Notes: generated from the sequence alone by a model not told the origin. 64,000 bases of DNA from Gammaproteobacteria bacterium (GCA_021773245.1 JAJFKK010000038.1:102-64101), one strand, 5' to 3'; counted from the first letter of the stretch, positions 5,302 through 59,531 are shown. Numbers and translations: made by a program.

Positions 5302-5412
5302 TCGTGGATTTGCGACTATACCGAAATGGAATGCTAGCTTTCTACTCACAGAGAAGTTACTATTTTTGTCTTGCTGTAAACCCCTGAAAATTATAGATTT
5401 TATATTAATGAA

Positions 5413-45572: not shown

Positions 45573-46340
45573 ATGGATAAAAAGAACAGCCCACTAAAGG
45601 ATAAGCCTCTACGTCTTGCTGGCCAGTCTCTACAGGAAGAGATCGATAAGACCATAAATGAACAAGCACTCAATTTTATTCTCTTACCTGCATTTTTTAT
45701 CTCTTTAACTCTTTATGAAGTAATTAGATATATTCAAGGAGCAGCTCCCACCATAAGGTCAGTTACACTCTTGGGGATAGTAGCAATCATAGTCTCAGTT
45801 GTTTGTGTATTTAAGCTCGTAAAATTCAGAAAAAAAGTCAAAAACATGCGCTTGGGTCTAGATGGCGAAAAAGCCGTTGGACAGGAGTTAGAGAAACTAA
45901 GAACGCAGGGATGTATGGTCTTTCATGACATTGTCGGCGATAACTTTAATATTGATCATGTGGTTGTATCTGATAAAGGTATCTTTCTCGTTGAAACAAA
46001 AACATATTCAAAACCAAATCGTGTAAATCCAAAAGTACGTTATGAAAAAGGTAAGCTTTCTATCGATGGCTTGGGTGACATGTCAAAAATTATCACTCAG
46101 GTTAAGGCTTCTAGCACTTGGTTAAAAAGAACATTAGAAGAATCGACAGGTAAAACATTCTTAATTAAACCGGTTATTCTTTTTCCTGGATGGTTTGTTG
46201 AATCACCTAATGATTCTGAAATATGGGTTTTAGAGCCGAAACAGTTTCCTTATTATATAAGTAAGAAAAAAGAAATTGTTTCTCTGGAAGATAAGAAGTT
46301 GGCTGCGTATCATTTGAGTCGGTATATAAGGGCATTATGA
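45573..46340 (+). CDS. NERD (nuclease-related domain) protein with two N-terminal TM helices
   Basis: 255 aa; G..GE..V...L..L...G..VFHDI.....NIDHVVVS..GIFLVETK NERD pattern. Confidence 0.75.
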   Translation: MDKKNSPLKDKPLRLAGQSLQEEIDKTINEQALNFILLPAFFISLTLYEVIRYIQGAAPTIRSVTLLGIVAIIVSVVCVFKLVKFRKKVKNMRLGLDGEKAVGQELEKLRTQGCMVFHDIVGDNFNIDHVVVSDKGIFLVETKTYSKPNRVNPKVRYEKGKLSIDGLGDMSKIITQVKASSTWLKRTLEESTGKTFLIKPVILFPGWFVESPNDSEIWVLEPKQFPYYISKKKEIVSLEDKKLAAYHLSRYIRAL

Positions 46341-46351
46341 TAAGCGGTAAA

Positions 46352-46381
46352 TTCAAGATTCAAGATTCAAGACTTGACTCC
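46352..46381 (-). repeat. Heptamer-repeat / GGRGTCA site, inverted copy
   Basis: TTCAAGATTCAAGATTCAAGACTTGACTCC, i.e. (TTCAAGA)x3 then the reverse complement of GGAGTCAAG. Confidence 0.6.
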
Positions 46382-46537
46382 GATCAATGAATGCAATTAT
46401 GGATGGACAGGATGTTGAAGGGAAAATAGATGATAAGGAATTGAAATATATTAGTATTTTCATAGAGGAAAAAAAGAAAAACTAATATATAGCCTGATAG
46501 TAAATTTAAAGCGAAAGAAATAGATTAAGGAGACTGC

Positions 46538-47245
46538 ATGAATATCAAGGAACTAAGCGAAGTTCTCAAAGAGACAAACTTTCAGGAGGATATGCTTCAT
46601 AGTCTTGTGGAAAAAGGATTTGGTAGTCTACCTGCAAGAGAAACTGCTCTAACTATATTAGAGTTAATCTTGCAGCATTATCCTGAATGGAAAGATAATC
46701 CTCCCGAGGACTATGAATTAGCAAGACTTCTTCGGACTTCTCCTCGAAAAATAAGAGGCTTACGTGATGATTTGGCATATAGAGATCCTAGGAAAGATGA
46801 TGATTGGTGCTTAAACGAGCTTACAGAGTTACTGAAGGGTGCAGAGAGAATCAAGGATGGTGCATATGTTACTTTTGAAATTGATGATGGTTTAGTTAGA
46901 GATTTTGCAAGAAAATTAGTGAGAAAAAATCTTGGTGTATTCGAGTCGGGACTCAATAACACTGTAGTTAAAATATCAGGAGAGCAATTCATTGCTCTTA
47001 CTATGACTATATTGCCAGAAAGTGAATTTAAAAAGCTAGAGAAAGTATTAAGTAAAGAAATAGCCAAAGAGAAAGTTAAGGATAAAGATGTTTCGCCTAT
47101 TCGATTATTCGTTAATAGTTTTATAAAGTCGGCTGGAACTCAGGCAGGAAAGAAGAGTGTCGATTTAGCATTTACAGTCTTAACGGGCGGGTTGTCTGAC
47201 GTAAAAGATGCAATTGATTATTTAAAGGAATTAATAAAAAAATAA
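46538..47245 (+). CDS. Hypothetical protein (no recognised domain)
   Basis: 235-aa ORF with AAGGAG Shine-Dalgarno; bracketed by inverted copies of the heptamer-repeat site. Confidence 0.5.
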   Translation: MNIKELSEVLKETNFQEDMLHSLVEKGFGSLPARETALTILELILQHYPEWKDNPPEDYELARLLRTSPRKIRGLRDDLAYRDPRKDDDWCLNELTELLKGAERIKDGAYVTFEIDDGLVRDFARKLVRKNLGVFESGLNNTVVKISGEQFIALTMTILPESEFKKLEKVLSKEIAKEKVKDKDVSPIRLFVNSFIKSAGTQAGKKSVDLAFTVLTGGLSDVKDAIDYLKELIKK

Positions 47246-47308
47246 GGTAAATCTAATTTGATATTTATTAAGCTATGGATATTAACGATTTAGAAGTAGG
47301 TCAGAGAT

Positions 47309-47337
47309 GCGGGGTCAGCTCTTGAATCTTGAAATTC
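47309..47337 (+). repeat. Heptamer-repeat / GGGGTCAG site, unoccupied copy
   Basis: GCGGGGTCAGCTCTTGAATCTTGAAATTC; same sequence class as the site split by the IS110 element at 58281/59452. Confidence 0.6.
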
Positions 47338-47427
47338 TTACCCAAGAGATTGTTGAACAGCTTGAAGCCGCGTTGGAAGCGTTGAATCAGCTTTAATCAT
47401 ATCAGAGGATTAGGCTTAGGGGGATAT

Positions 47428-50190
47428 ATGCCTACTAATAGAGAAAAAGTTCTAAATTATTTAAACAAGATTTCACCCGGCAGAGCAACCAATAACGATA
47501 TTCTTATAGCTACTGAGATAGAACCTCATCAACAAGTTTTTCAGATCACCGACAATTTGTTCCAATCGGGACAAATTCAAGGAGTAAAAAATGGTAAGGA
47601 GTGGTCGTTTTGGATTGATGAAAATTCAATAAGCGGCGACTCAGTCAATCCTGAAACAGTGAGTGCTAATATGAATCCATTAATTCGCGAGTTATTTCTT
47701 AAATATAAAGCTAATCCTAATGAAGTTTGGGTTTCTGAATATGAAGAAAGAATTAATCAAGTTAGAACATTTCGGAATAAACCAGCGTCGTTTTTAACTG
47801 AAAAAGTTTTGCACGAACTGTGGATGCAAAAAGCGAATGGTATCGCTAATGTAGGACTTGGTTTTATGTATCAAAGTGAGTTTGATGCGTTACAGGAACA
47901 GTTGCCTGAAATAACGATTAAAATTATAAATGAGCCGACCTCTGTAAAACTTGATGAGATAGAAGTTTGGGCTAAACAGCAAAAAGATTTTGGGAATCTA
48001 AAGCATATTACCTGGTCAGTAATCTATCGTGTTTTCGCTGCAGCTAACCCAGATGAGCTATGTACAATAGTTAATAAAGCAAATCTAGACCAATTAATTA
48101 AAACTCTTAATGAAAATTATGGTTTTAATATTTCCACTCAAGGAAATTGGTTTGACAGAAACTCAGCCTTGCTGAAATCCTTAAAGCAAGGAGAATTAGC
48201 TAATCAAGAAGTACATTTGATAAATACCTTTCCATGGATGCTTTATGAGTGGTTAGTGGTACAAGCTCCTGAAAGAAATGCCAGCTTATCAATGGAACAT
48301 GTGATTAGTGCAATAAATGAAATTGATGAACGCGGTGTTAATTCTGGTGAAAAGTCATCTACCTACGATCTCATTCATAATGTAAGGTGTTATCCGCCTA
48401 AACTAGTCTATTCCCTAGCGCATAAATATAAAGATGGAACAGAACTCGATCGATCTGCATTTGAGGGAGGAGAAAATACGCAATGCTTTAGTGACTTACG
48501 TGGTCTTGGCTTTATCATTGAGCGTAAGGATTTTGTTTCTGAATTACTTAAGAAATTTATTCAACAAGCTGATGAAGGCGCTAGTTTAACTACAAGAGAT
48601 TATCCTAAAACGTATTGTGGGTTAGATGTTAATGTAAGTTTTGGCCAGGGCAACTTTTCAAAGGTGCCCTGGATATCATTTTTAGGATATGGTCAAAAAA
48701 CACAGAATGGTATATACCCTGTTTATCTATATTATAAAACTATCAAGGTCCTAGTACTTGCATACGGCGTAAGTACAACAAATGAACCAGAAGTAGTATG
48801 GAAATTTCATGATCATAAAGAAACAATCCGGGATCATTTAGCAAGTGAATATGATTTTCAATTAGAAAAATATGGTTATTCTTATGTTTATTCTTCATAT
48901 CATTTGCCTACTAACCTCACTGATCCTCAAGTCACTCTGGATTTAGACACTGTGATTGCTGAATACCATAAACTGATGGGCGGTACACCAACAGTTTCTC
49001 CCGCTCCTGTTCCGCCAGAACCTGAGCCACCTGTAGAACCAATCTTAGATCCTGAAGCTATATCCAAATCATTTTCTGCTGCTCTGAGTAATTCGAATGT
49101 TCGTTTTGGTGAATCCCATGATGCTAGAGTTAGTGCTTTCGTTTCAAGCTTGATGACAAAACCTCTAGTTATTCTCACCGGCTTGTCTGGTTCAGGCAAA
49201 ACGCAAATCGCCATCCGTTTTGGGGAGTGGCTAGGTAAGGATCGAATGTTAGTAGCGCCAGTTCGTCCTGATTGGACAGGTGCAGAGGCGCTATTTGGAT
49301 ACGAAGATGCACTAAAGCCAATAGTTAATGGCAGAGCTTCTTGGGCTGTGCCAGATACATTAGCATTTATACTCAAAGCTTCGAATAACCCACATTGGCC
49401 GTATTTACTTGTTTTAGATGAAATGAACTTGGCTCACGTCGAACGATATTTTGCCGATGTGTTATCTGGAATGGAATCTGATCAACCTTGCTTGCCTAAT
49501 TTAATTCAAGAGAGTGATGGTTGTTGGCGTATTGCTGATCATGGTCCTGATAAAATTACATTTCCTAAGAATATATTTGTTGTCGGTACGGTAAACGTTG
49601 ATGAAACGACTTATATGTTTTCACCAAAAGTACTCGATCGAGCCAATACGTTTGAGTTTCGGGTGACCACCGATGACTTGGCTGATGATTATATTAAACC
49701 TATACAATGCAAACCAGGTGAAATCGGATTGGTCAGAGGGTTTTTGGAAGTTGGGCGTGATGATGCATGGCATAGTCAGAATGTCTTTACAGAAGCAACA
49801 GATCTTTCTCAACAACTGCGCCATGTACATAGCATGTTAGCTGCACATGGATTTGAGTTTGGCCATCGGGTATTTTATGAGTCCCAACGCTTCGCTGCAA
49901 TTTATGGTGCCACTGGAGAATTCAATTTATCAAATGTATTAGATTTGATTGTGATGCAAAAACTATTGCCACGATTACACGGTTCTCGTCGCCGACTTGA
50001 AGAACTGCTGCGTGCCTTTGCAAAATTTTGTTTTAATAACACCATCGAAACAAAAGAGGAAAGCATAGCCTCAATATTTGAGCCGGAGGATAAAAATACT
50101 GCCGATGCAAAATTGCCCGTTTCATTTGATAAGTTAAAACGTATGTTACGTAGTTTACGAGCCAATCAATTTACGAGTTTTACGGAATAA
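47428..50190 (+). CDS. McrB-like AAA+ GTPase with long N-terminal extension (wHTH, YPPK-type module, DUF3578/MrcB_N-like module)
   Basis: 920 aa; Walker A GLSGSGKT, Walker B/McrB signature LLVLDEMNLAHVERYFADVLS, GTVNVDETT...S.KVLDRA; residues ~390-450 GQGNFSKVPWISFL...GIYPVYLYY resemble DUF3578. Confidence 0.8.
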   Translation: MPTNREKVLNYLNKISPGRATNNDILIATEIEPHQQVFQITDNLFQSGQIQGVKNGKEWSFWIDENSISGDSVNPETVSANMNPLIRELFLKYKANPNEVWVSEYEERINQVRTFRNKPASFLTEKVLHELWMQKANGIANVGLGFMYQSEFDALQEQLPEITIKIINEPTSVKLDEIEVWAKQQKDFGNLKHITWSVIYRVFAAANPDELCTIVNKANLDQLIKTLNENYGFNISTQGNWFDRNSALLKSLKQGELANQEVHLINTFPWMLYEWLVVQAPERNASLSMEHVISAINEIDERGVNSGEKSSTYDLIHNVRCYPPKLVYSLAHKYKDGTELDRSAFEGGENTQCFSDLRGLGFIIERKDFVSELLKKFIQQADEGASLTTRDYPKTYCGLDVNVSFGQGNFSKVPWISFLGYGQKTQNGIYPVYLYYKTIKVLVLAYGVSTTNEPEVVWKFHDHKETIRDHLASEYDFQLEKYGYSYVYSSYHLPTNLTDPQVTLDLDTVIAEYHKLMGGTPTVSPAPVPPEPEPPVEPILDPEAISKSFSAALSNSNVRFGESHDARVSAFVSSLMTKPLVILTGLSGSGKTQIAIRFGEWLGKDRMLVAPVRPDWTGAEALFGYEDALKPIVNGRASWAVPDTLAFILKASNNPHWPYLLVLDEMNLAHVERYFADVLSGMESDQPCLPNLIQESDGCWRIADHGPDKITFPKNIFVVGTVNVDETTYMFSPKVLDRANTFEFRVTTDDLADDYIKPIQCKPGEIGLVRGFLEVGRDDAWHSQNVFTEATDLSQQLRHVHSMLAAHGFEFGHRVFYESQRFAAIYGATGEFNLSNVLDLIVMQKLLPRLHGSRRRLEELLRAFAKFCFNNTIETKEESIASIFEPEDKNTADAKLPVSFDKLKRMLRSLRANQFTSFTE

Positions 50191-50193
50191 ACA

Positions 50194-52485
50194 ATGCCTG
50201 CCTGCGAAGCAACGCAGTTAGCTGTTTTAGATCAAGCCAATATTGCTCGCGCTTGTATTAGTTTGTCATTATTACCAAATAAAAAGTCGGATAAGAACCT
50301 CGTTCCGCCCTTAATCGTCTTAGATAAACATTCTGAATCAAACGCAGTTCCCCCAGTTCAATTACTTGAAGGTTGTGAATACCGCTATGAGTTTATTGAA
50401 TTAAAAGATATCAAGGGCGTAATCACAACCGATCATGCTGATGTCTTTCAGCCTGATACAAACGATGGTCGAAGTGGGCGAGTTCGGCCGGAACTGTATA
50501 CGGGGACGCTTCCAATTAGAGTCTTTCTCGATGGGAAAGATTTTGGTTCCTTCTCCCTTGAGGTGCGTTCTAGAAAACTAGATTATTTAAAAGAATACCG
50601 ATGGATGGTCAGGGATCTGGCTGAGCAAATGTCAGAAATAGTAATGAATCGTTTTGCACCTGCAATTCAACGTTTCAGTATAGATGACACAAAAGATGCG
50701 CAAACGCTTTATCAACGGTTTGCTTTTCTTAAATCTTTAATTGGCAGTGAAGAATTTCAAGCTGCTTTAAGTGAGATTGTTCATCATCCTCATGTTGCCT
50801 GGATTGATTTTCATGAGCCTGTACATCCGAGCAAGGGACTCAAAGCGGGTTCCTATGTCTCCCGTCAATTGGCCAAGAGTGGTCCAAGGCAAGAATGGAA
50901 ACATGGAATTATCTCAACCATTCCTCAAAATATTTATCGACATATAACAGAAGTAACTGTTGATACCACGCCGAATCGATTCGTTAAGTTTGCTATTGAA
51001 CGTTGGCGCGATGTGGTGGCAAGAATTGGTGAGTTACTTGCTGCGCAATCACAGAATCCAGTAATTGATAGGGGTGTACGGGAAGTAATTGAAATCCTTG
51101 ATTATCTCGATGCTATTTTAGCTGAAGGTTTGTTTAGAGAATTAGGAACGCTCGATAACTTTCCTGCAGATAACCAAGTGCTGCACAAACGGGAAGGTTA
51201 TCGAGATGTGTTTCGAGCCTATATCCAATTTGATGTGGCGGCAAAGTTATCATGGGATGGCGGCGAAGATGTTTATGGCGCGGGTAAACAAGACGTTGCG
51301 ACTTTATATGAATATTGGGTCTTCATGAAACTAGCGCAATTGATTTCTGAACTTTGTGATACGCCTTTTAAATTTTCTGATTTGATTAAGGTTGAAGAGG
51401 ATGCTTTAAATGTAATCCTTAAAAAAGGGAGGCGATGTGTATTGAAAGGGATTGTAGAACGCCGCGGGCGAATGATGGATGTGGAGCTCTGGTTCAATCG
51501 TACCTTTGGCAATAGAGCTCAAGGTGAAGGTTCTTGGTCACGACAAATGCGACCGGATTATTCACTAAAGATTTCCCCATCGAAAGATGAAGTTGCTCAT
51601 TTTGAGCCGGTTTACGTGCATTTTGATGCCAAATATCGAATTGACCGAATAGAAGATGTATTTAGGCCAGGCGAAGAAGATAGCTCTGAGTATGAAGTAA
51701 CTAACAGTAATTCGCCTGCTGCTACTGCAAAACGTGATGATCTATTAAAAATGCATGCCTATCGAGATGCTATACATCGTTCAGCCGGCGCCTATGTTTT
51801 ATACCCTGGTACTGAAGTAAAGGTGTATCGAGAATATCATGAACTCCTACCTGGCTTGGGGGCATTTGCCTTAAGACCTACCGAAGATGGAGAGGCAGCA
51901 GGCAAACTACCCTTGGAACGATTCATCGAAGATGTGCTTGAGCATGTTGCTTCTCAGATCACTCAGCATGAGCGAGGGCGATATTGGGTTAAAGAAGCTT
52001 ATGCCGAACAAGATTATTTCACTAGCGAAATACCTGCGGCATCTTTTCTAAAGCACCCTCCAGCAGATACGCAAGTGTTATTAGGTTACGTTAAGAATAA
52101 GAAGCATTGGGACTGGATAGAGAAAAACAAACTTTATAACGTTAGAGGCTACGGTAAAAGAGGGAAGATTGGATTAGGCTCAAAAGAACTGGGTTCGGAC
52201 ATAATTCTCTTGTCATGCCCTAGCGAAAAGCTAGTAGCAATTGCACGAATCATTGGTTCACCTGAATTGCATACCAAAGAAGAGATGGAAGAAAATAATT
52301 ATCCTAAACCAAAAGGAATTTACTATTGTTTCAATTTGGAAATGATTATTGATGAATATTGGTGTGGATTTGTAAGCAGTGAATTGATTGAAAAAGTACG
52401 GTCTACATTAACTCCCAATAAAGAGCCTATTGTTATGTCATGGTTAAAATTGATTCGAAGTATAGAAGTAAAAAATGACGTATAG
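50194..52485 (+). CDS. McrC-like PD-(D/E)xK nuclease with DUF2357-like N-terminal region and extra C-terminal module
   Basis: 763 aa; starts 3 nt after the McrB-like stop; LYEYWVF, RPDYSL, VHFDAKYR (D-x-K), LLKMHAYRDAI, AYVLYPG. Confidence 0.7.
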   Translation: MPACEATQLAVLDQANIARACISLSLLPNKKSDKNLVPPLIVLDKHSESNAVPPVQLLEGCEYRYEFIELKDIKGVITTDHADVFQPDTNDGRSGRVRPELYTGTLPIRVFLDGKDFGSFSLEVRSRKLDYLKEYRWMVRDLAEQMSEIVMNRFAPAIQRFSIDDTKDAQTLYQRFAFLKSLIGSEEFQAALSEIVHHPHVAWIDFHEPVHPSKGLKAGSYVSRQLAKSGPRQEWKHGIISTIPQNIYRHITEVTVDTTPNRFVKFAIERWRDVVARIGELLAAQSQNPVIDRGVREVIEILDYLDAILAEGLFRELGTLDNFPADNQVLHKREGYRDVFRAYIQFDVAAKLSWDGGEDVYGAGKQDVATLYEYWVFMKLAQLISELCDTPFKFSDLIKVEEDALNVILKKGRRCVLKGIVERRGRMMDVELWFNRTFGNRAQGEGSWSRQMRPDYSLKISPSKDEVAHFEPVYVHFDAKYRIDRIEDVFRPGEEDSSEYEVTNSNSPAATAKRDDLLKMHAYRDAIHRSAGAYVLYPGTEVKVYREYHELLPGLGAFALRPTEDGEAAGKLPLERFIEDVLEHVASQITQHERGRYWVKEAYAEQDYFTSEIPAASFLKHPPADTQVLLGYVKNKKHWDWIEKNKLYNVRGYGKRGKIGLGSKELGSDIILLSCPSEKLVAIARIIGSPELHTKEEMEENNYPKPKGIYYCFNLEMIIDEYWCGFVSSELIEKVRSTLTPNKEPIVMSWLKLIRSIEVKNDV

Positions 52486-52869
52486 ATGTCTATGTCAAAA
52501 ACAGATTGCCCTTTTTGTAATATATCTAATTCTGAAATTTTAATTCGGAACGAGTTATGTTATGCGCGATTGGATCTGTATCCAGTTTCTGAAGGCCATG
52601 TTTTGATTATTCCGTTTCGTCATTTTTCAAATTATTTTGATGTTACACAAGATGAAAAAAATGCCATTTGGTCTCTTGTAGATGAAATGAAACAAGTCAT
52701 CAGACAGGAACACAGTCCAGATGGTTATAATATCGGGATGAATGTAGGTCGAGCAGCAGGACAAACTGTCCCCCACTTACATGTTCATATCATTCCAAGA
52801 TACGAAGGCGATGTTGAGAATCCTAAAGGTGGCGTTCGAGGAGTGATACCGGTCAAACAAAAATATTAG
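52486..52869 (+). CDS. HIT-family nucleotide hydrolase/transferase
   Basis: 127 aa; histidine triad HLHVHIIP; CPFC N-terminus; ATG directly abuts the McrC-like stop (TAGATG). Confidence 0.85.
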   Translation: MSMSKTDCPFCNISNSEILIRNELCYARLDLYPVSEGHVLIIPFRHFSNYFDVTQDEKNAIWSLVDEMKQVIRQEHSPDGYNIGMNVGRAAGQTVPHLHVHIIPRYEGDVENPKGGVRGVIPVKQKY

Positions 52870-52885
52870 TTTTCTAATTAATTTA

Positions 52886-53038
52886 ATGAAACTTTTTACA
52901 CAAAATAAAGAGCAAATAAAGACCTTTGACGACTGGGCCAATATTTTTCTAGGTACTAAAAAGGCCAAGCATTGGAAAGAGGGACGCAGTGCTTACTCAA
53001 TTGCTGTCTTTATTATGAATCATAATGGCCAAGCGTAG
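52886..53038 (+). pseudogene. 50-codon ORF, probable truncated gene remnant
   Basis: MKLFTQNKEQIKTFDDWANIFLGTKKAKHWKEGRSAYSIAVFIMNHNGQA-stop; the HWK.GRSA..A motif looks like the N-terminus of a longer family; assignment uncertain. Confidence 0.3.
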
Positions 53039-53092
53039 TTTATGCTGGTGAAGAAATAATTATCACTAATAATTTATAAAACGAGATAAATA

Positions 53093-56000
53093 ATGCATAG
53101 GGAAAGTGGCATATCACGAACATTTGACCTCTTCGCAGAAGAAGAGAAGATTGATAGTCATAAGATCCCGGGTTGGCCTTCCTACGCACGTTTCCCACTT
53201 AACATAGACGGCTATCATGTTGAAGATGTTGTTTTAAATGATCTAAAATCCAGTAAATCACCACTCATCATTACAGGTTTTGCTAGTTTAGATAACCTTA
53301 TTGATTTTTGTTTTGATGCCCATATAAATAATCCAAAAATTCATACACGATTACTAATTGGTCAGGAACCTTTTCCTTCTCGTAGAGAAACCTTTTCAGT
53401 TAACCAAAACCATTTGACTGAAGAAGTAGAAGCCTATTGGTTGGAACGTGGCATTTCATTGATTTATTCAGCCAAGTTAATTCATATGGTTGAGCTATTA
53501 AAGAATGGAAAAATTGAAGCGCGATATATGCCTGGTAGTCGGCGTCTTCATGCAAAGATATATTGTGGCGATGAAGCAGCAACGGTTGGTTCATCCAATT
53601 TTACCCATCCGGGACTAAAAGGACAGATTGAAGCTAATGCTCGTTTTGAAAAAGATGGGCGTTCTAGTCGGTTTGAAGAACTCACTACCATAGCTGAAAA
53701 TTATTGGACGTTGGGAAGAAGTTACCAGGATCAACTAATCGAATTATTAGAAAAATTATTACGCGTTGTAACATGGGAGGAAGCTTTAGCGCGAGCTTGT
53801 GCTGAGCTATTAGAAGGTGAGTGGGCGGAAAAATATATTCGAGGTGAATACTTATCGGGTTCAGGTAGTTTATGGCCTTCCCAAAAACAGGGTATAGCGC
53901 AAGCACTTACAATATTATCGACTCAAGGTAGTGTTTTAATCGCTGATGCTACCGGTGCTGGGAAAACCAAGATGGGTACTTACTTAATAGGTGCTGTGCA
54001 GGATCATATCTTACGTACAGGCAGAATGCGTCAAGGTAAAGCATTAATGATTTGTCCTCCAACAGCAGAATCAAATTGGAAACGGGAATCAAACTTATCA
54101 GGTGTTGCTTTAGATCCTTATTCACATGGAATTTTCAGTAATGAGAGAACAAAAGGACATGATGATACTGTTGATGCTCTACGTAGAGCGCAAATCCTTT
54201 CAGTTGATGAAGGGCATAACTTCCTTAATTTTAAATCTCAAAGAACTCAAAAACTATTAAGAAATATGGCAGACCATGTCATGTTGTTTACTGCTACGCC
54301 AATTAATAAAAGCGTGAATGACCTACTGAGAATGGCCGATATGCTTGGTGCCGATAATTTATCTGAATCAGTTATTTCGGCATTTAAGAAGATGTTAGGT
54401 GTTCGAAATCTGAGTAGACAATTATCAGAGAAAGAACTTGATGAGTTAAGGACGGAAATAAAAAAATTTACAGTTCGACGTACAAAGAAGCAGTTGAATA
54501 AGCTTGTTGATAGAGAGCCGGATAAATATACAGATATTAATGGTAAGCAATGCCGTTTTCCGAAGCATTTGCCAAAAGTCTACAGTCTATATGAATCTGA
54601 TGATGATAAAGAAATTGCAAATAAAATAAAAAAACTAGCAAGTGAATTATATGGCGTCACTCATTTTGTTAAAACAATTAAAATGCCTGATATTTTTATT
54701 AAACAAGGTTTGACAGAAGAAAAATATTTACAAGGGCGTTTGGCTTCGGCAAAAAGTTTAGCCCGATATATGATCATGTCTTGTTTAAGGTCATCACGAG
54801 CAGCACTGATTGAGCATGCTGTTGGTACAGATGAAGCAATTGAGTTTAGTCAAATAACGGGTTTTCATAAAAGCAACAAAAGCAAAGGGATGACGGAGCA
54901 AATAAAATCAATAAAAGATAAGTTGCCCGAGAATCAATTAAGCATCGACCTTCCTCTATGGTTAACTAATAAAAAAGATCATGGAGATGCTTGTGCTAAT
55001 GACTTCAGAATTTATAGAAAAATTGCTGATCTTGCAGCGCACATGAGTGATAGTAGAGAAATATCTAAGGCTAAAAGATTAATGAGCTTATTAAAAAAGC
55101 ATGATCTTGTTTTAGCATTTGATAGGAAGCCAATTACTTTAGCTGTCATTAATCAAAAAATAAGTCTTAATAAAGATAATAGGGTGCTTGTTGCATGGGG
55201 AGAAAAAGGGAGTGACAAGGATAAAGTTATAAAAACATTTGCATTTGGTTCAGAAGAAAAAGGTGTTATCGGTCTTTGTTCAGATAGTCTTGCCGAAGCA
55301 GTAAATCTTCAACAGGCATCGTGTTTATTACACTTGGATATGCCAAGTGTAGTTCGGATAGCCGAGCAGAGAGCTGGAAGAATAGACCGTATGGATAGTC
55401 CCCATAAGAATATAGAAATATGGTGGCCGGATGATGCGGAAGAATTTTCATTGACATCCGATGAACGATTTATTGAACGATATGACACAGTAGAAAAATT
55501 ATTAGGTTCAAATATGCCTTTGCCAGAAATTATGAAACGGCACAGTAGAAAAGTAGTAACGACAAAAGACATGATTGAAGAAGTTGAGTTAAAAGAAAAT
55601 ATTTGGGATGGAATAGACGACGCATTTTCATCCGTTCGTTCATTAGTTGAAGGTGAAACTGCTATAGTTTCTACAGAAGTATACGAAAGGTATGTATCCG
55701 TTAAAGAACGTGTTTTATCAAGAGTGAGTCTTGTTAGATCTCATTCTCCGTGGGCATTGTTTTGTATTACATCAGGTAGTTTCGGTTCGCCAACATGGGT
55801 ATTACTTCCTAGTTTAGGTGGGCAGGCAGAAACAGAACTTAGTCGTATTGTTGATAAAATACGTAAGCGTTTAACTGATGACGTGGAAGATGTGAAGCTT
55901 GATGAGAATAGTGCAAAGTTACTGGATCATTTTTTAAATCGACTGTCTGTAAGTGAACGGAGTTTATTGTCCAGAAAGAAACAAAGAGCATTGGAAGAAA

Positions 56001-56335
56001 TGGAACTTATAATTGGTAAGCTAAAAACAAAGAGTGAGAGTAAAAAACATATTGATCACTTGCTAGATGTTGAGAAGATGTTAACTAATCCACCAAAAGA
56101 TAAACAGCCAGATTGGGATGAAGTTGCTTCTAGATGGCTGGATGTGATTAGGCCAGTTTGGTTTGATAAATTAAATAATCCTAGAAACAAACCACTTCTT
56201 TTAAAAGATATTCGAAATGAACTGATGAAAGAACCTAAATGGCTAGTGAGTGAAATTGTAGAACATTTTAGACGTTTTCCGATATTGCCTGGGCCAGAAG
56301 AAAGGATTAAGGCTTGTATTATTGGTGTGAATTAA
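53093..56335 (+). CDS. PLD (HKD) nuclease domain fused to SF2 (SNF2/DEAD-like) helicase
   Basis: 1080 aa; single HKD motif HAKIYCGDEAATVGSSNF (H153); helicase motifs ADATGAGKT, DEGHNF, TATPINKS, QRAGRIDR; ~280-aa uncharacterised C-terminus. Confidence 0.8.
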   Translation: MHRESGISRTFDLFAEEEKIDSHKIPGWPSYARFPLNIDGYHVEDVVLNDLKSSKSPLIITGFASLDNLIDFCFDAHINNPKIHTRLLIGQEPFPSRRETFSVNQNHLTEEVEAYWLERGISLIYSAKLIHMVELLKNGKIEARYMPGSRRLHAKIYCGDEAATVGSSNFTHPGLKGQIEANARFEKDGRSSRFEELTTIAENYWTLGRSYQDQLIELLEKLLRVVTWEEALARACAELLEGEWAEKYIRGEYLSGSGSLWPSQKQGIAQALTILSTQGSVLIADATGAGKTKMGTYLIGAVQDHILRTGRMRQGKALMICPPTAESNWKRESNLSGVALDPYSHGIFSNERTKGHDDTVDALRRAQILSVDEGHNFLNFKSQRTQKLLRNMADHVMLFTATPINKSVNDLLRMADMLGADNLSESVISAFKKMLGVRNLSRQLSEKELDELRTEIKKFTVRRTKKQLNKLVDREPDKYTDINGKQCRFPKHLPKVYSLYESDDDKEIANKIKKLASELYGVTHFVKTIKMPDIFIKQGLTEEKYLQGRLASAKSLARYMIMSCLRSSRAALIEHAVGTDEAIEFSQITGFHKSNKSKGMTEQIKSIKDKLPENQLSIDLPLWLTNKKDHGDACANDFRIYRKIADLAAHMSDSREISKAKRLMSLLKKHDLVLAFDRKPITLAVINQKISLNKDNRVLVAWGEKGSDKDKVIKTFAFGSEEKGVIGLCSDSLAEAVNLQQASCLLHLDMPSVVRIAEQRAGRIDRMDSPHKNIEIWWPDDAEEFSLTSDERFIERYDTVEKLLGSNMPLPEIMKRHSRKVVTTKDMIEEVELKENIWDGIDDAFSSVRSLVEGETAIVSTEVYERYVSVKERVLSRVSLVRSHSPWALFCITSGSFGSPTWVLLPSLGGQAETELSRIVDKIRKRLTDDVEDVKLDENSAKLLDHFLNRLSVSERSLLSRKKQRALEEMELIIGKLKTKSESKKHIDHLLDVEKMLTNPPKDKQPDWDEVASRWLDVIRPVWFDKLNNPRNKPLLLKDIRNELMKEPKWLVSEIVEHFRRFPILPGPEERIKACIIGVN

Positions 56336-56432
56336 GAGGTAATCTTTCCTAAAGTTACCTTGAAAATACCCGATAAACCCCTATATAAAGGTTGACAAAA
56401 GTTGACGAATTAAGAGAGAATACGCCCCGTTT

Positions 56433-57560
56433 ATGGATAAAACCCTTAGAATAGAAGCAATAAAGCAAGCCATGGATAAGGCTGGCCTTAACCAAGCTGC
56501 GCTCTCTGCAAAGCTGAGTGTTTCAAAAGAAATCGTTTCCAAATGGCTTAGTGGTGTTAAGTTCCCGCGTCCAGATAAATTACTTAGATTATCTAGTGCT
56601 TTGGAATTAAATTACGATGAACTCGTTGAGATTATTTCTCAGGTTAATGAACCGATAATAGCTTTTCGTAAAAAAGGTAGTACAAAAACAACAGAAAAAC
56701 ATATTAATAGAGCTAAAAATATAGGTCGTTTGTTATCTTGTTTAGTTTCTTATTTGCCCTTTGATGAATTTGTTCAGCCATCAAAATTAAAAAATCCCAA
56801 ACTTGAGTATGAATATGTTCAATCCTTTACTTTTAAAGTTCGTAAAGAAATAGGATTGCGAATAGATCAGGTAATTGATTTTACTGATTTAATTCATACA
56901 TTTCATGAATTACAGGCAGTAATTGTCCCTGTTATGTGGGGAAAGAAGAATGTACATGAAAATGCACTTCATATTTATTTGCCTGATTCAATGACGACTT
57001 GGGTTTATTTGAACTTAGATACAGAGTTACATGATTTTAAGTTTTGGATGGCTCATGAATTAGGTCATGTATTTAGTCCTGATCTAAGAGGAAATGAAGC
57101 AGAAGATTTTGCTGATGCATTTGCCGGAGCATTATTATTCCCTCAAGAATTGGCCAAGCAGGCATATAAAAGTATATCTTCAAGTAAAAGCGATAAAATA
57201 AGAATTTCTAAAATTAGAGACTATGCACTTGAATATTCAATATCTTTAATCTCTGTATATAAAGAAATTAATAATTATGCTATTTATAATAGTTTGCCTA
57301 AGATAGATTTAGGAAATAGTTTGTTTGGGGCAAATACAAATTTTAATAAAATGTTTGCAACTGTAAGTGGTTCATTATTTGAAAATGAATCTCCAAATGC
57401 TGAAGATTATATTCAAAGAACTTCAGATGTTTTTGAAACTCCTTTTTTTGATACTTTGAAAAAGTATCTAGTTGAACACGGAAAGTCAGCAAGTTATGTA
57501 CAGTCTATTCTTGATACTCCGCTAATTGACGCAAAGGAACTGTATGCGGAGTTGACTTGA
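56433..57560 (+). CDS. XRE HTH fused to ImmA/IrrE (M78) metallopeptidase
   Basis: 375 aa; N-terminal HTH (LNQAALSAKLSVSKEIVSKWLSG), HExxH motif MAHELGHVF. Confidence 0.8.
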   Translation: MDKTLRIEAIKQAMDKAGLNQAALSAKLSVSKEIVSKWLSGVKFPRPDKLLRLSSALELNYDELVEIISQVNEPIIAFRKKGSTKTTEKHINRAKNIGRLLSCLVSYLPFDEFVQPSKLKNPKLEYEYVQSFTFKVRKEIGLRIDQVIDFTDLIHTFHELQAVIVPVMWGKKNVHENALHIYLPDSMTTWVYLNLDTELHDFKFWMAHELGHVFSPDLRGNEAEDFADAFAGALLFPQELAKQAYKSISSSKSDKIRISKIRDYALEYSISLISVYKEINNYAIYNSLPKIDLGNSLFGANTNFNKMFATVSGSLFENESPNAEDYIQRTSDVFETPFFDTLKKYLVEHGKSASYVQSILDTPLIDAKELYAELT

Positions 57561-58120
57561 TGTCGCAGTCAAAAATTCTAATTGATAGTAATTCCTATTT
57601 TAGATTAGCCAAAAGTATACACCCGCTTTTGAATGAGGTGTTTGGTGAATTAGAATATTGTTTATATGTACTAAAGGAACTGGAAAAAGAATATGACCGA
57701 AACCCTCGTTTAAAAACTAAGTTTCATTGGGTAAATGAAGATGAATATTTTCAGAATAGAAAAAAGAAAGTAAATATTTCAAATAAAGAAAAAAAAGAAA
57801 TAGAAAGGACTATAGGATTTTTAGAAGGATATAAAAATGACAATTGCTTAGGAACTTCTCCAATAGATATAAAATATCTAGCAACGGCTTTTATTTTAGA
57901 TATACCTGTTGTAACAGATGATATAGATATGCTTAACCTAGGAAAAGCATTTGATATTGTAACTATGACTAGTATGGACTTGCTGAAGTTAATGTTAGAA
58001 AGCGATCATATAAACATTGAAAAAGTAAGAGAAACAGTATCGTATTGGAAATATATAAAAGATATACCAGCAAACTATAAAAAGAATTACAAAAAATTAT
58101 TTAAAGAAAATGCTCCTTAA
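57560..58120 (+). CDS. PIN-like (DUF4411-like) putative nuclease/toxin
   Basis: ATG overlaps the ImmA stop (TGATG); ILIDSNSYF N-terminus and VVTDDIDM acidic motif consistent with a PIN-like fold. Confidence 0.55.
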   Translation: MSQSKILIDSNSYFRLAKSIHPLLNEVFGELEYCLYVLKELEKEYDRNPRLKTKFHWVNEDEYFQNRKKKVNISNKEKKEIERTIGFLEGYKNDNCLGTSPIDIKYLATAFILDIPVVTDDIDMLNLGKAFDIVTMTSMDLLKLMLESDHINIEKVRETVSYWKYIKDIPANYKKNYKKLFKENAP

Positions 58121-58305
58121 ATAAATATCATTTCATCATACATTTATTGTTTTCATTAATTATTCGAACAATTAACTTTGCATCTACGTTAAACTAGGAC
58201 TCTTGTTTTTAACTTTGAGTTCACCATTGATTAACCTTCCTTTTAAAAATCGATATCTGGAATTGGGTGAATATTGGAGTGCGGGGTCAGATACCGTCTT
58301 AAAGA

Positions 58306-59298
58306 TCAAGCAAAATTCTTATCAAATGGCATACCACTTTTCAAAACCCCATAAATAATGTGAACGAGTTTTCGCATAGCAGCACCAACAATCGCCATTT
58401 TAGATTTACCTGCTTTTGTTAATCGCAACTTTAATTCTATGATTAATGGGTTATGTTTTAACGCGACTAATGCCGGCATAAAGAAGGCCTTGCGTAAATT
58501 AGAACGCCCCATCTTTGACATCCTTGCACGTGAACGTAATGACGTTCCGGATTCTCGTGTTTTCGGTGCAACGCCAATAAATGCCGCCAAGGCTTTTGCA
58601 TTTTTGAATTGAGTGATGTTACCAAACTCGGAAAGAATGACATTGATAGTGGCTTCACCAATGCCTGGAATGCTTTCCAGTAATACTTTTCTTTTCTTCA
58701 TATCGGGGTGATCATCGATGTGTTGTTTAATCATTTTCTTTACCTTCTTTATCTCTTTATCAAGATACGCAAGGTGATGATGTAGTTGTTCTGCAATGAG
58801 ATCACTGGCACCTTCAAGCCGATTACTTTCTTGTCGATGCATATTTCCCAATGCCTCTAAGCGTCGTACCAGGTCACGACATTGGCGTATTTCCACTGGT
58901 AGTGGTTGCCAGAGCGAGGGCTCCAGTGCGAGACAAAAACGCGCAATCAAACTCGCATCAACTTTGTCTGTTTTAGTACGCAGTTGTTCACTTTGTGCAA
59001 AGCCTTTGACACGCGCTGGATTGACAATACTAATATTTATTTCGTTGTCATATAAATATTCAGCTAAGGCTTCACCATAAACACCAGTGGCTTCCATACA
59101 CGCATGCAGTTCCTGAGCATCGTGTTTACTGAGCCAAGCCAGTAATGTTTGATAGCCTTTTGTATTATTAAAGAATTTCTTGTGTTTTAGTTTGTTACCT
59201 ATCAATAGCGCAACATCAAACTTCTGTTTGTATATATCGATACCCAGTGTTGTTTTGGTTGTTATCATTGTTCTGCTTACCTCGTGATGCAGGTTCAT
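58306..59298 (-). CDS. IS110-family DEDD transposase/recombinase
   Basis: 330 aa; LGIDI.K, MEATG.YGE, VNPARVKGFA, KTDKVDA, SIPGIGE, G..P....SG. Confidence 0.9.
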   Translation of the reverse strand: MNLHHEVSRTMITTKTTLGIDIYKQKFDVALLIGNKLKHKKFFNNTKGYQTLLAWLSKHDAQELHACMEATGVYGEALAEYLYDNEINISIVNPARVKGFAQSEQLRTKTDKVDASLIARFCLALEPSLWQPLPVEIRQCRDLVRRLEALGNMHRQESNRLEGASDLIAEQLHHHLAYLDKEIKKVKKMIKQHIDDHPDMKKRKVLLESIPGIGEATINVILSEFGNITQFKNAKALAAFIGVAPKTRESGTSLRSRARMSKMGRSNLRKAFFMPALVALKHNPLIIELKLRLTKAGKSKMAIVGAAMRKLVHIIYGVLKSGMPFDKNFA

Positions 59299-59451
59299 CC
59301 TTTAAGGAGACCTAAGATACCGTCCAGCATTGTGAACAAAATTGGTCGGGGCACCTATCTGACCCACAGGTTCAAGACCTAACGTCTTAGCGATGTCACC
59401 CGACCACGTTATTGAGTTATCATGATATCTCAACGACATTGATAAGATACG
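59299..59451 (-). ncRNA. Candidate IS110 bridge RNA (non-coding left end)
   Basis: 153-nt non-coding end upstream of the transposase; stem GGUCGGG/CCCGACC (59344-59405) encloses AGGUCUUGAA and GGGUCAG, the reverse complements of the two target half-sites plus CT core; 3' part contains GACGGUAUCUUAGG, matching both IS termini. Confidence 0.45.
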
Positions 59452-59531
59452 AGGTCTTGAATCTTGAATCTTGAATTTATTAATTACAGAAGTAAGAAAC
59501 CATAAGAATATATATCCTTTCATATAACTTC

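What the first reader, a model, noticed from the sequence alone, without database searches (positions are those of the whole stretch)
58281..59476. IS110-family element with a readable candidate bridge RNA and its split target site
Seen: the element (58291-59451) interrupts GCGGGGTCAG | GTCTTGAATCTTGAATCTTGAA. On the transposase sense strand both ends are bordered by CT. All the non-coding DNA (153 nt) lies 5' of the transposase. Within it, a 7-bp stem (GGTCGGG/CCCGACC) encloses AGGTCTTGAA-CCTGT-GGGTCAG. These are the reverse complements of left flank plus CT (TTCAAGACCT) and of CT plus right flank (CTGACCC). Near the transposase start, GACGGTATCTTAGG matches both IS termini (RE ...GACGGTAT-CT, LE CT-CGTATCTTATC). 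Established: IS110-group recombinases use a bridge RNA encoded in the non-coding end, with loops that specify target and donor around a core dinucleotide (CT in IS621). Inference: this is a natural example in which the guide-target relationship can be read directly from the sequence.
Basis: partly seen in the sequence, partly recalled or inferred. Interest (0 to 1): 0.6.

Follow-up and report, generated by a model that had tools for sequence, protein, structure and literature searches.

The report
IS621-like insertion sequence with bridge RNA

Summary
Window 58291-59451 (minus strand) is an intact 1161-bp IS110-family element. Its transposase is 48% identical to that of IS621, and a CT core borders both ends. 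The 5' non-coding end is about 183 nt, not 153 nt, because the real start codon is at 59268. A covariance model built only from 39 relatives, IS621 included, matches this end at 143.9 bits (E 1.7e-39).

The proposed left target guide AGGTCTTGAA does not hold. It is the conserved inner hairpin of the target-binding loop. Its stem covaries internally, and the same hairpin occurs in relatives that have unrelated targets.

The real left target guide is CUAAGAC(GU), just 5' of the hairpin. It has the same sense as the flank, so it pairs with the bottom strand, as in IS621. It matches the flank TCAAGAC-CT at 5 of 7 positions.

Across 48 relatives, guides defined this way track their flanks (5.4/7 and 4.7/5, against about 2.4 when shuffled).

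The target is a multi-copy repeat in this genus. In a congener it flanks a Y1-transposase gene, much as IS621 inserts into REP elements.

Verdict: a new member of a known kind, of low interest.

The parts
58291..59451 (-). Whole IS element (1161 bp), IS621-like member of the IS110 family
   Evidence: The uninterrupted target motif in congeners fixes both boundaries. Single copy in the own draft genome.
59452..59453 (-). Left copy of the core dinucleotide CT
   Evidence: 47 of 48 relatives analysed have CT here.
58289..58290 (-). Right copy of the core dinucleotide CT
59454..59460 (-). Left target (LT) TCAAGAC, part of a TTCAAGA x3 repeat
   Evidence: Matches the left target guide CUAAGAC at 5/7 positions.
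58284..58288 (-). Right target (RT) GACCC
   Evidence: Perfect complement of the right target guide.
59272..59451 (-). Left end encoding the bridge RNA (extent of the covariance-model match)
   Evidence: Model R1, built from 39 relatives without this element: 143.9 bits, E 1.7e-39, full length 1-186.
59444..59449 (-). -10 box TATCTT of the junction promoter (left-end positions 3-8)
   Evidence: TATCTT in 45/48 relatives, a fixed 17 bp from a TTGAC-type -35 box across the right-end/CT/left-end junction.
58304..58309 (-). -35 box TTGATC in the right end, overlapping the stop codon; functional only in the excised circle
   Evidence: TTGAYN at this position in 45/48 relatives. Same geometry as IS621 TTGCAG-17-TATTAT. 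Junction promoter described in PMC11208160.
59407..59437 (-). 5' stem-loop of the bridge RNA
   Evidence: MFE fold. Position equivalent to the IS621 5' stem-loop.
59399..59405 (-). Outer stem of the target-binding loop, 5' strand GGUCGGG
   Evidence: Pairs with 59344-59350. In 62 relatives, own-partner duplex averages -20.4 kcal/mol against -11.7 +/- 0.4 for swapped partners.
59382..59390 (-). Left target guide (LTG) CUAAGAC + GU (core positions)
   Evidence: Column-homologous to IS621 AUCGGGCCU. Same-sense match to LT across 48 relatives is 5.38/7 against 2.35 +/- 0.21 when permuted.
59368..59380 (-).
   Evidence: Homologous to IS621 GGGU-UCUA-ACCU. The stem pairs covary, with 18 double changes at one pair. 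No covariation with LT: 2.98/8 against 2.61.
59359..59365 (-). Right target guide (RTG) GGGUC + AG (core)
   Evidence: Reverse complement of CT-GACCC. Across relatives 4.67/5 against 2.46 +/- 0.16. L011 switches to GGGAUAG with RT ATCCC.
59357..59358 (-). Handshake guide AU of the target-binding loop
   Evidence: Complementary to left-donor positions 6-7 (AT). Rule taken from PMC11208158. Inferred from sequence only.
59344..59350 (-). Outer stem of the target-binding loop, 3' strand CCCGACC
59315..59324 (-). Left donor guide (LDG) GACGGUAU + CU
   Evidence: Identical to the right-end terminus GACGGTAT-CT (58291-58298 plus core). G/A covariation (ACGGTAT against ACAGTAT) in relatives.
59290..59314 (-). 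Inner hairpin of the donor-binding loop
   Evidence: Covarying pairs in RNAalifold.
59281..59289 (-). Right donor guide (RDG) C-AU(C)ACGAG, discontiguous complement of CT-CGTAT
   Evidence: Left ends starting CGTAT go with ..ACGAG, and those starting TGTAT with ..ACAAG, in all relatives. Discontiguous pairing as described for IS621 (PMC11208160).
59279..59280 (-). Handshake guide GU of the donor-binding loop
   Evidence: Complementary to LT positions 6-7 (AC). Rule from PMC11208158. Inferred.
58306..59268 (-). Transposase / bridge recombinase gene, 320 aa, start ATG 59268
   Evidence: PF01548 and PF02371. 48% identity to the IS621 transposase, E 2e-97. D11, E59, D101, D104, S240 invariant in 26 homologues. 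Relatives are 319-320 aa.
58291..58298 (-). Left donor (LD) GACGGTAT, terminus of the right end
47309..47337 (+). Unoccupied paralogue of the target motif (in IS sense TCAAGAG-CT-GACCC)
   Evidence: Only 4/7 match to the left target guide, with a mismatch next to the core.

Best explanation
This is an intact, probably active IS621-like insertion sequence of the IS110 group: a serine/DEDD bridge recombinase gene preceded by a canonical bridge RNA of about 180 nt.

Shown by comparison:
- The RNA has a 5' stem-loop, a target-binding loop and a donor-binding loop.
- In the target-binding loop, the 5' side CUAAGAC(GU) has the sense of the left flank and so pairs with its bottom strand. [quoted passage not shown]
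- In the donor-binding loop, GACGGUAU(CU) and AU(C)ACG(AG) do the same for the joined right and left ends.
- AGGUCUUGAACCU, which lies between the two target guides, is a structural hairpin.

Inferred from the IS621 mechanism:
- The element excises as a circle whose right-end/CT/left-end junction rebuilds a sigma-70 promoter (TTGATC-17-TATCTT) that drives the bridge RNA.
- Two recombinase dimers, holding the two loops, synapse the circle with a target of the form nnAAGAC-CT-GACCC.
- They exchange top strands at CT, helped by the handshake dinucleotides AU and GU, and then resolve the Holliday junction.

The copy in this window sits in a near-cognate site: 5/7 on the left with both mismatches distal, and 5/5 on the right. 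The site belongs to a short repeat that is multi-copy in the genus.
For: - Pfam PF01548 and PF02371.
- 48% identity to the IS621 transposase. The catalytic residues D11/E59/D101/D104/S240 are invariant and align to IS621 D11/E60/D102/D105/S241 (PMC11208158).
- The recalled IS621 bridge RNA was verified at 100% identity, directly upstream of an annotated IS621 transposase.
- The left end aligns column by column with IS621 and about 60 relatives.
- The covariance model built without this element scores 143.9 bits, E 1.7e-39, over 59272-59451.
- Compensatory changes occur in the target-loop inner hairpin and in the donor-loop stems. The target-loop outer stem is partner-specific, -20.4 against -11.7 kcal/mol.
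- Guide/flank covariation in 48 non-redundant elements: LTG 5.38/7 against 2.35, RTG 4.67/5 against 2.46.
- Natural re-targeting in a 90%-identical relative: GGGAUAG goes with ATCCC.
- An independent insertion of a 91%-identical relative lies in the same TTCAAGAC-CT-GACCCC motif in a different genomic context (L016).
- The junction promoter is conserved in 45-47 of 48 elements.
- The empty form of the site is present many times in congeners.
Against: - There is no transcript, circle-junction or activity evidence.
- The LTG matches the occupied site at only 5/7 positions, plus a G opposite the first core position, so this is not a perfect 'readable' pair.
- There is only one copy in a draft genome, so there is no within-genome replication of target choice.
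- The MFE fold of the left end alone is not clearly better than shuffles (z -1.8).
- E-values from the home-made model are rough.
Confidence: 0.9

Rival explanations
1. AGGUCUUGAA is the left target guide and, like GGGUCAG, pairs with the top strand, so both guides read the same DNA strand.
For: There is perfect 10-nt complementarity to TTCAAGAC-CT in this element and in L016. Chance expectation for such a 10-mer in one left end is roughly 0.01 or less by my estimate.
Against: - The segment is column-homologous to the IS621 hairpin GGGUUCUAACCU, whose target is unrelated.
- Its AGGY/RCCU stem covaries internally.
- Across 48 elements it does not track the left flank: 2.98/8 against 2.61 permuted.
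- Nearly the same hairpin occurs in L088, L100 and L053, whose left flanks are CGCTTCC, GCCCACC and unrelated.
- L009 has a different hairpin but the same kind of target, and its LTG matches 7/7.
- Three of the ten matches (AGG against C-CT) come for free, because C-CT is near-universal in the family.
Confidence: 0.03
2. The hairpin is structural, but in this clade its complementarity to AAGAC-CU has a second role. It could sequester the LTG (AAGAC:GUCUU) as an off-switch, or it could capture the displaced top strand of the left target.
For: AAGAC/GUCUU or GUUUU pairing is possible in the closest relatives: this element, L016, L011, L018, L039, L041. A 7-10 nt match is unlikely by chance.
Against: The pairing is lost in L009, L023, L040 and L057, which use the same target type. 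The LTG is constant in the clade, so no compensatory change can be shown. IS621 has no such pairing.
Confidence: 0.05
3. The element is a dead relic that merely retains recognisable features.
For: It is a single copy. It sits among decayed gene fragments in a defence island. A truncated copy exists in a sister genome.
Against: - The 320-aa frame is open with all catalytic residues.
- Every bridge-RNA module, both termini and the junction promoter are intact.
- Homologues of 87-93% identity lie at different sites in other metagenomes.
Confidence: 0.1

Closest known systems
IS621 of Escherichia coli (IS110 family; bridge recombinase and bridge RNA; Durrant et al. 2024, PMC11208160; Hiraizumi et al. 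2024, PMC11208158)
   Same: - Same two Pfam domains and five catalytic residues; 48% protein identity.
- Same order of RNA modules: 5' stem-loop, target-binding loop with inner hairpin, donor-binding loop with inner hairpin.
- CT core.
- LTG and LDG have the sense of the top strand; RTG and RDG are its complement; the RDG is discontiguous.
- Handshake dinucleotides AU and GU in the same places.
- Near-identical donor (GACGGTAT-CT-CGTAT against ACAGTAT-CT-TGTAT).
- -35 box in the right end and -10 box in the left end, 17 bp apart across the junction.
- Inserts into a short genomic repeat.
   Different: - Different target (nnAAGAC-CT-GACCC against ATCGGGC-CT-ACGCA).
- The LDG is fully matched to the core (CU), whereas IS621 has CA.
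- The base of the LTG opposite the first core position is unconstrained in this clade (G here; U, C or A in relatives).
- The RTG is 5+2 nt and fully matched.
- The right end is only 15 nt, with the -35 box overlapping the stop codon.
- No experimental data.
ISPpu9/ISPpu10 of Pseudomonas putida (IS110 family, REP-targeting; PMC12288879; bioRxiv 10.64898/2026.03.19.712850)
   Same: IS110-family elements that insert at one position of a multi-copy intergenic repeat.
   Different: No sequence comparison was made here. The repeat targeted in this window is not an obvious palindrome.
IS1111-group elements with seekRNA (Siddiquee et al. 2024, PMC11187229)
   Same: A DEDD/serine transposase guided by an element-encoded RNA to a specific site.
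   Different: In the IS1111 group the non-coding region lies 3' of the transposase and there are subterminal inverted repeats. Here the RNA is 5' and there are none.

Membership tests
IS110 family, IS110 group (IS621-like bridge recombinase systems) | Transposase with an N-terminal DEDD RuvC-like domain (PF01548) and a C-terminal Tnp domain (PF02371) | tested here: met
   PF01548 at 7.7e-24 and PF02371 at 2.6e-25.
IS110 family, IS110 group (IS621-like bridge recombinase systems) | Catalytic D, E, D, D and Ser (IS621 D11, E60, D102, D105, S241) | tested here: met
   D11, E59, D101, D104 and S240-G241 align to the IS621 residues and are invariant in 26 homologues.
IS110 family, IS110 group (IS621-like bridge recombinase systems) | Long non-coding left end 5' of the gene, short right end, no terminal inverted repeats, and a core dinucleotide at both junctions without target duplication | tested here: met
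   183-nt left end, 15-nt right end, CT at both junctions. The empty motif in congeners has a single CT.
IS110 family, IS110 group (IS621-like bridge recombinase systems) | The left end folds as a bridge RNA: 5' stem-loop, target-binding loop and donor-binding loop | tested here: met
   Covariance model from relatives: 143.9 bits, E 1.7e-39. Compensatory pairs. Partner-specific outer stem. Rfam holds no such model: the authentic IS621 RNA also gives no hit.
IS110 family, IS110 group (IS621-like bridge recombinase systems) | The LTG (top-strand sense) and RTG (complement) match the flanks around the core | tested here: met
   RTG 5/5 plus core 2/2. LTG 5/7 plus core 1/2 at this site. Family-wide covariation has z of about 14 for each guide.
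IS110 family, IS110 group (IS621-like bridge recombinase systems) | The LDG and RDG match the joined right-end/left-end donor | tested here: met
   LDG GACGGUAUCU equals the right end plus core. RDG AU(C)ACGAG pairs with CT-CGTAT. There is C/T-G/A and G/A covariation in relatives.
IS110 family, IS110 group (IS621-like bridge recombinase systems) | A promoter is reconstituted across the circle junction | tested here: met
   TTGATC-17 bp-TATCTT across the junction. TTGAYN and TATCTT are conserved at fixed spacing in 45-47 of 48 relatives. This rests on sequence only.
IS110 family, IS110 group (IS621-like bridge recombinase systems) | The bridge RNA is transcribed and the element excises as a circle | not testable with these tools
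IS1111 group (seekRNA) | Non-coding region 3' of the transposase, and subterminal inverted repeats | tested here: not met
   Only 15 nt lie 3' of the stop codon; the RNA is 5'.

The most novel reading that the evidence does not exclude
In this clade the inner hairpin of the target-binding loop has acquired a second job. Its 5' arm and loop (AGGUCUUGAA) are complementary both to the element's own left target guide and to the top strand of the preferred left target. It could therefore act as an intramolecular mask of the guide, or as a clamp for the displaced target strand. That would be a regulatory layer not described for IS621.
Probability: 0.05. Interest if true: 0.55.

Novelty: new member of a known kind. 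Interest (0 to 1): 0.17.

Why it matters
It matters little for discovery. Bridge-RNA-guided IS110 elements and their guide rules were described in 2024 from thousands of examples, and this element obeys them.

It has some practical use:
- It shows how a plausible by-eye guide assignment can be wrong. Complementarity to a flank is not enough; position in the conserved fold and covariation decide.
- It adds an IS621-related orthologue (48% identity) with a fully matched donor core guide, a 7-nt matched right guide, and a set of natural relatives with many different left guides.
- It identifies a short multi-copy repeat of this genus as the natural landing site.

Tried and rejected
- Rfam scan of the region found only chance hits. 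The control on the authentic IS621 RNA also found nothing, so Rfam has no bridge-RNA model and the negative result says nothing.
- Single-sequence folding gave z = -1.8, which is not decisive.
- The search for an orthologous empty site in 22 congeners found none with both flanks joined. Only the short motif itself and, separately, the left 130 nt were found.
- The genome-contig scan gave only two loci. The metagenome scan and exact-protein look-ups supplied the comparison set.
- I considered whether the target motif is an integron attC site. The mixed orientations argue against it.
- I considered whether it is a Tn3-family terminal repeat. It starts with GGGG, but there is no TAAG at position 35-38 and the interior is variable. 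Neither idea was pursued.
- My guess that 58141-58271 is the start of a selO-like gene was not verified. The frame from GTG is closed in L118.
- RNAalifold on the MAFFT alignment missed the outer stem of the target-binding loop because of indels. I tested that stem per sequence instead.

Full report
**1. What is in the sequence**

Read on the minus strand, the region is:

...AAATTCAAGATTCAAGATTCAAGAC-CT-[CGTATCTTATC ... TTTAAGACGGTAT]-CT-GACCCCGCAC...

The bracketed element is 58291-59451 (1161 bp).

The longest ORF (58306-59298) carries PF01548 and PF02371. The DEDD domain begins only at ORF residue 18. Homologues in the large protein database are 319-320 aa. This places the start at ATG 59268 (MITTKTTLGIDI...), not 59298. 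The left non-coding end is therefore 183 nt, not 153 nt, and 15 nt of right end follow the stop codon.

The element is single-copy in its 183-contig draft genome.

**2. Relation to IS621**

I recalled the 177-nt IS621 bridge RNA from memory. I then verified it: it occurs at 100% identity in 1,199 or more E. coli records, directly upstream of a gene annotated 'IS110-like element IS621 family transposase'.

The window's protein is 48% identical to that transposase (E 2e-97). IS621's catalytic D11, E60, D102, D105 and S241 (PMC11208158) align to D11, E59, D101, D104 and S240. All five are invariant in an alignment of 26 homologues.

**3. The guide rule that has to be met**

Durrant et al. (PMC11208160) state the rule for each loop:
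- The 5' side (LTG, LDG; 8-9 nt including the core) pairs with the bottom strand, so it has the sequence of the top strand.
- The 3' side (RTG, RDG; 4-7 nt) pairs with the top strand.

**4. Alignment-based anatomy**

I collected relatives in three ways: exact-protein look-ups, one genome scan and one metagenome scan. Their left ends align well with the window and with IS621.

In those columns the window reads:

- GGUCGGG-UGACAUCG
- [CUAAGAC GU] = left target guide (LTG)
- U-[AGGU CUUGA ACCU]-GU = inner hairpin
- [GGGUC AG] = right target guide (RTG)
- AU-AGGUGC-CCCGACC
- ...UGCUG
- [GACGGUAU CU] = left donor guide (LDG)
- [UAGGUCUCC UUA AAGGAUGAACCUG] = donor-loop hairpin
- C[AU C ACG AG] = right donor guide (RDG)
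- GU-AAGCA...AUG

IS621 in the same columns reads AUCGGGC CU / U-GGGU UCUA ACCU-GU / UGCGU AG.

The true left target guide is the 9 nt just 5' of it.

**5. Tests of the two assignments**

*Covariation with flanks.* For 48 non-redundant elements with both junctions identifiable:

| Comparison | Observed mean | Permuted pairings |
|---|---|---|
| LTG, same sense, against left flank | 5.38/7 | 2.35 +/- 0.21 |
| RTG, reverse complement, against right flank | 4.67/5 | 2.46 +/- 0.16 |

The small excess for the hairpin comes from the window's own clade.

Examples of clean re-targeting:
- L047: AUCGAGU-CU with ...ATCGAGT-CT.
- L061: GGCCGCC-CU / GACAG-AG with GGCCGCC-CT-CTGTC.
- L102: AGAAGUC / UGAGG with AGAAGTC-CT-CCTCA.
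- L011, 90% identical to the window, has RTG GGGAUAG and right flank ATCCC.

*The hairpin is structural.* RNAalifold on 39 relatives, without the window, predicts the 4-bp stem. It has compensatory changes at three of its four pairs, including 18 double changes at one pair.

*The hairpin is independent of the target.* Nearly the same hairpin (AGGUCUUGGAACCU, AGGUCUUUGAACCU, AGGUCUUGAGCUU) occurs in L088, L100 and L053, whose guides and left flanks are unrelated. L009 has a different hairpin (AGGCAUUAAGCCU) but the same kind of target. Its LTG UAAAGAC matches its flank TAAAGAC 7/7.

It is shared with L016, which has the same hairpin and the same target. It is best read as coincidence on top of three free matches: AGG against C-CT, which is near-universal in the family.

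**6.

Rfam gives nothing relevant. It gives nothing for authentic IS621 either, so it holds no bridge-RNA model.

I built a model from 39 relatives, with IS621 included and with the window and its relatives of 87% identity or more excluded. It finds exactly one strong match in the 64-kb window: 59272-59451 on the minus strand, full length, 143.9 bits, E 1.7e-39. For comparison, IS621 itself scores 68 bits.

I tested it per sequence. Each element's 5' and 3' strands pair at -20.4 kcal/mol on average, against -11.7 +/- 0.4 with another element's strand.

**7. Donor side, handshake guides and promoter**

- The LDG GACGGUAU-CU equals the right end plus core.
- Relatives with ACAGTAT termini have ACAGUAU guides.
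- The RDG reads AU(C)ACG-AG against CT-CGTAT. Left ends starting CGTAT always go with ...ACGAG, and those starting TGTAT with ...ACAAG. The pairing is discontiguous, as described for IS621.
- Following PMC11208158, the two nucleotides 3' of the RTG (AU) can pair with left-donor positions 6-7 (AT). The two 3' of the RDG (GU) can pair with left-target positions 6-7 (AC). This is inferred from sequence only.
- Joining right end, CT and left end gives TTGATC-17 bp-TATCTT. In 48 relatives the -35 position reads TTGAYN in 45, and the -10 box TATCTT in 45, at the same spacing. IS621 has TTGCAG-17-TATTAT.

This fits the published finding that excision rebuilds the promoter for the bridge RNA. In the integrated copy no comparable -35 box lies upstream, by my reading. 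That agrees with the weak expression from integrated IS621 reported in PMC13626964.

**8. The target**

The LTG/RTG pair predicts CTAAGAC-CT-GACCC.
- No perfect site exists in the draft genome.
- One site has a single mismatch (contig 50, CGAAGAC-CT-GACCC).
- The occupied site has two mismatches, both at the distal LT positions.

The 91%-identical L016 element, with the same LTG, sits in the same TTCAAGAC-CT-GACCCC motif next to dnaJ in another organism. This near-cognate choice is therefore reproducible.

The motif is a repeat:
- Variants occur about 11 times in the own genome, against 0-7 for shuffled motifs.
- The uninterrupted 23-27-mer occurs at 100% identity many times in congeners.
- In genome G001, two inverted copies bracket a gene with Y1_Tnp (IS200-like) and HTH domains.
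- The 79%-identical L023 element is likewise inserted about 40 nt from a Y1_Tnp gene.

This parallels IS621 and other IS110 members that land in REP elements. I did not show that the repeat is a REP in the strict sense.

**9. Limits**

- No expression, circle or activity data could be obtained.
- Model E-values are rough by construction.
- Flank extraction used motif rules. It skipped loci with atypical ends, so 48 of about 80 were usable.
- Sequences in the set are related, so permutation z-scores overstate independence. The many distinct guide/flank pairs nevertheless make the conclusion robust.

**10. Verdict**

This is a canonical, intact IS621-like element: a new member of a known kind. 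The left target guide was mis-assigned, and the right donor guide and the true RNA length were missed.

Noticed in passing
window 46349-46385 (motif in IS sense on +) and 47309-47337; L125 (G001) 1016, 1962, 2730, 3722, 5394, 5611: The IS target GGGGTCAG(G/C)TCTTGAATCTTGAA is a multi-copy repeat of this genus. In the window, two copies in inverted orientation bracket a 235-aa ORF (46538-47245). In G001, two inverted copies bracket a Y1_Tnp+HTH gene (L125 2758-3687). It may be the end of a small mobile unit or a REP-like element. Its nature is unresolved.
   Followed up: partly
L125 (G001) 2730-2761, 1962-1999, 5394-5425: The repeat continues as ...TTGAATTTAYTCAT. On the other strand several unrelated ORFs therefore begin M(N/S)KFKIQDLT(P), reading through the repeat, preceded by a shared GAGGAAGAG-like ribosome-binding stretch. 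This looks like a portable translation start.
   Followed up: no
window 58141-58271: This stretch is 85-94% identical to a conserved segment in five congeneric genomes (two copies in G022). Homology stops 19 nt before the IS target motif, as if an island boundary or rearrangement lies here.
   Followed up: partly
L006 (genome G015, contig 21): A truncated copy of a 92%-identical IS: only transposase residues ~222-320 plus the right end remain. It is bounded on the left by an intact, uninterrupted target motif (TTCAAGAC-CT-GACCCC) and on the right by CT-GACCCCAAAGAC. It is possibly the product of an aberrant recombination or deletion.
   Followed up: partly
window 59383; same column in L009, L011, L016, L018, L023, L039-L050: In the clade whose left guide ends AAGAC, the guide base opposite the first core position is unconstrained (G here; U, C or A in relatives). 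Almost all other relatives keep C. Conversely, the left donor guide is fully matched (CU) in nearly all relatives, whereas IS621 has CA.
   Followed up: no
L018 and L020 left junction; L014 right junction: L018 and L020 carry an extra T between the matched left flank and the core (CTCAGAC-T-CT), a one-base register shift relative to the guide. L014 has CA instead of CT after the right end. These may be natural off-register events or assembly artefacts.
   Followed up: no
window 59269-59298: The longest ORF of the transposase starts at ATG 59298, inside the hairpin of the donor-binding loop. Automatic annotation would over-extend the gene by 10 codons and hide the right donor guide.
   Followed up: yes
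window 45573-58120: The IS lies at the edge of a defence-gene island. It contains a NERD-like ORF, McrBC-like genes, a PLD-helicase, and an XRE-ImmA/PIN-like pair, as earlier notes on this genome also record.
   Followed up: no
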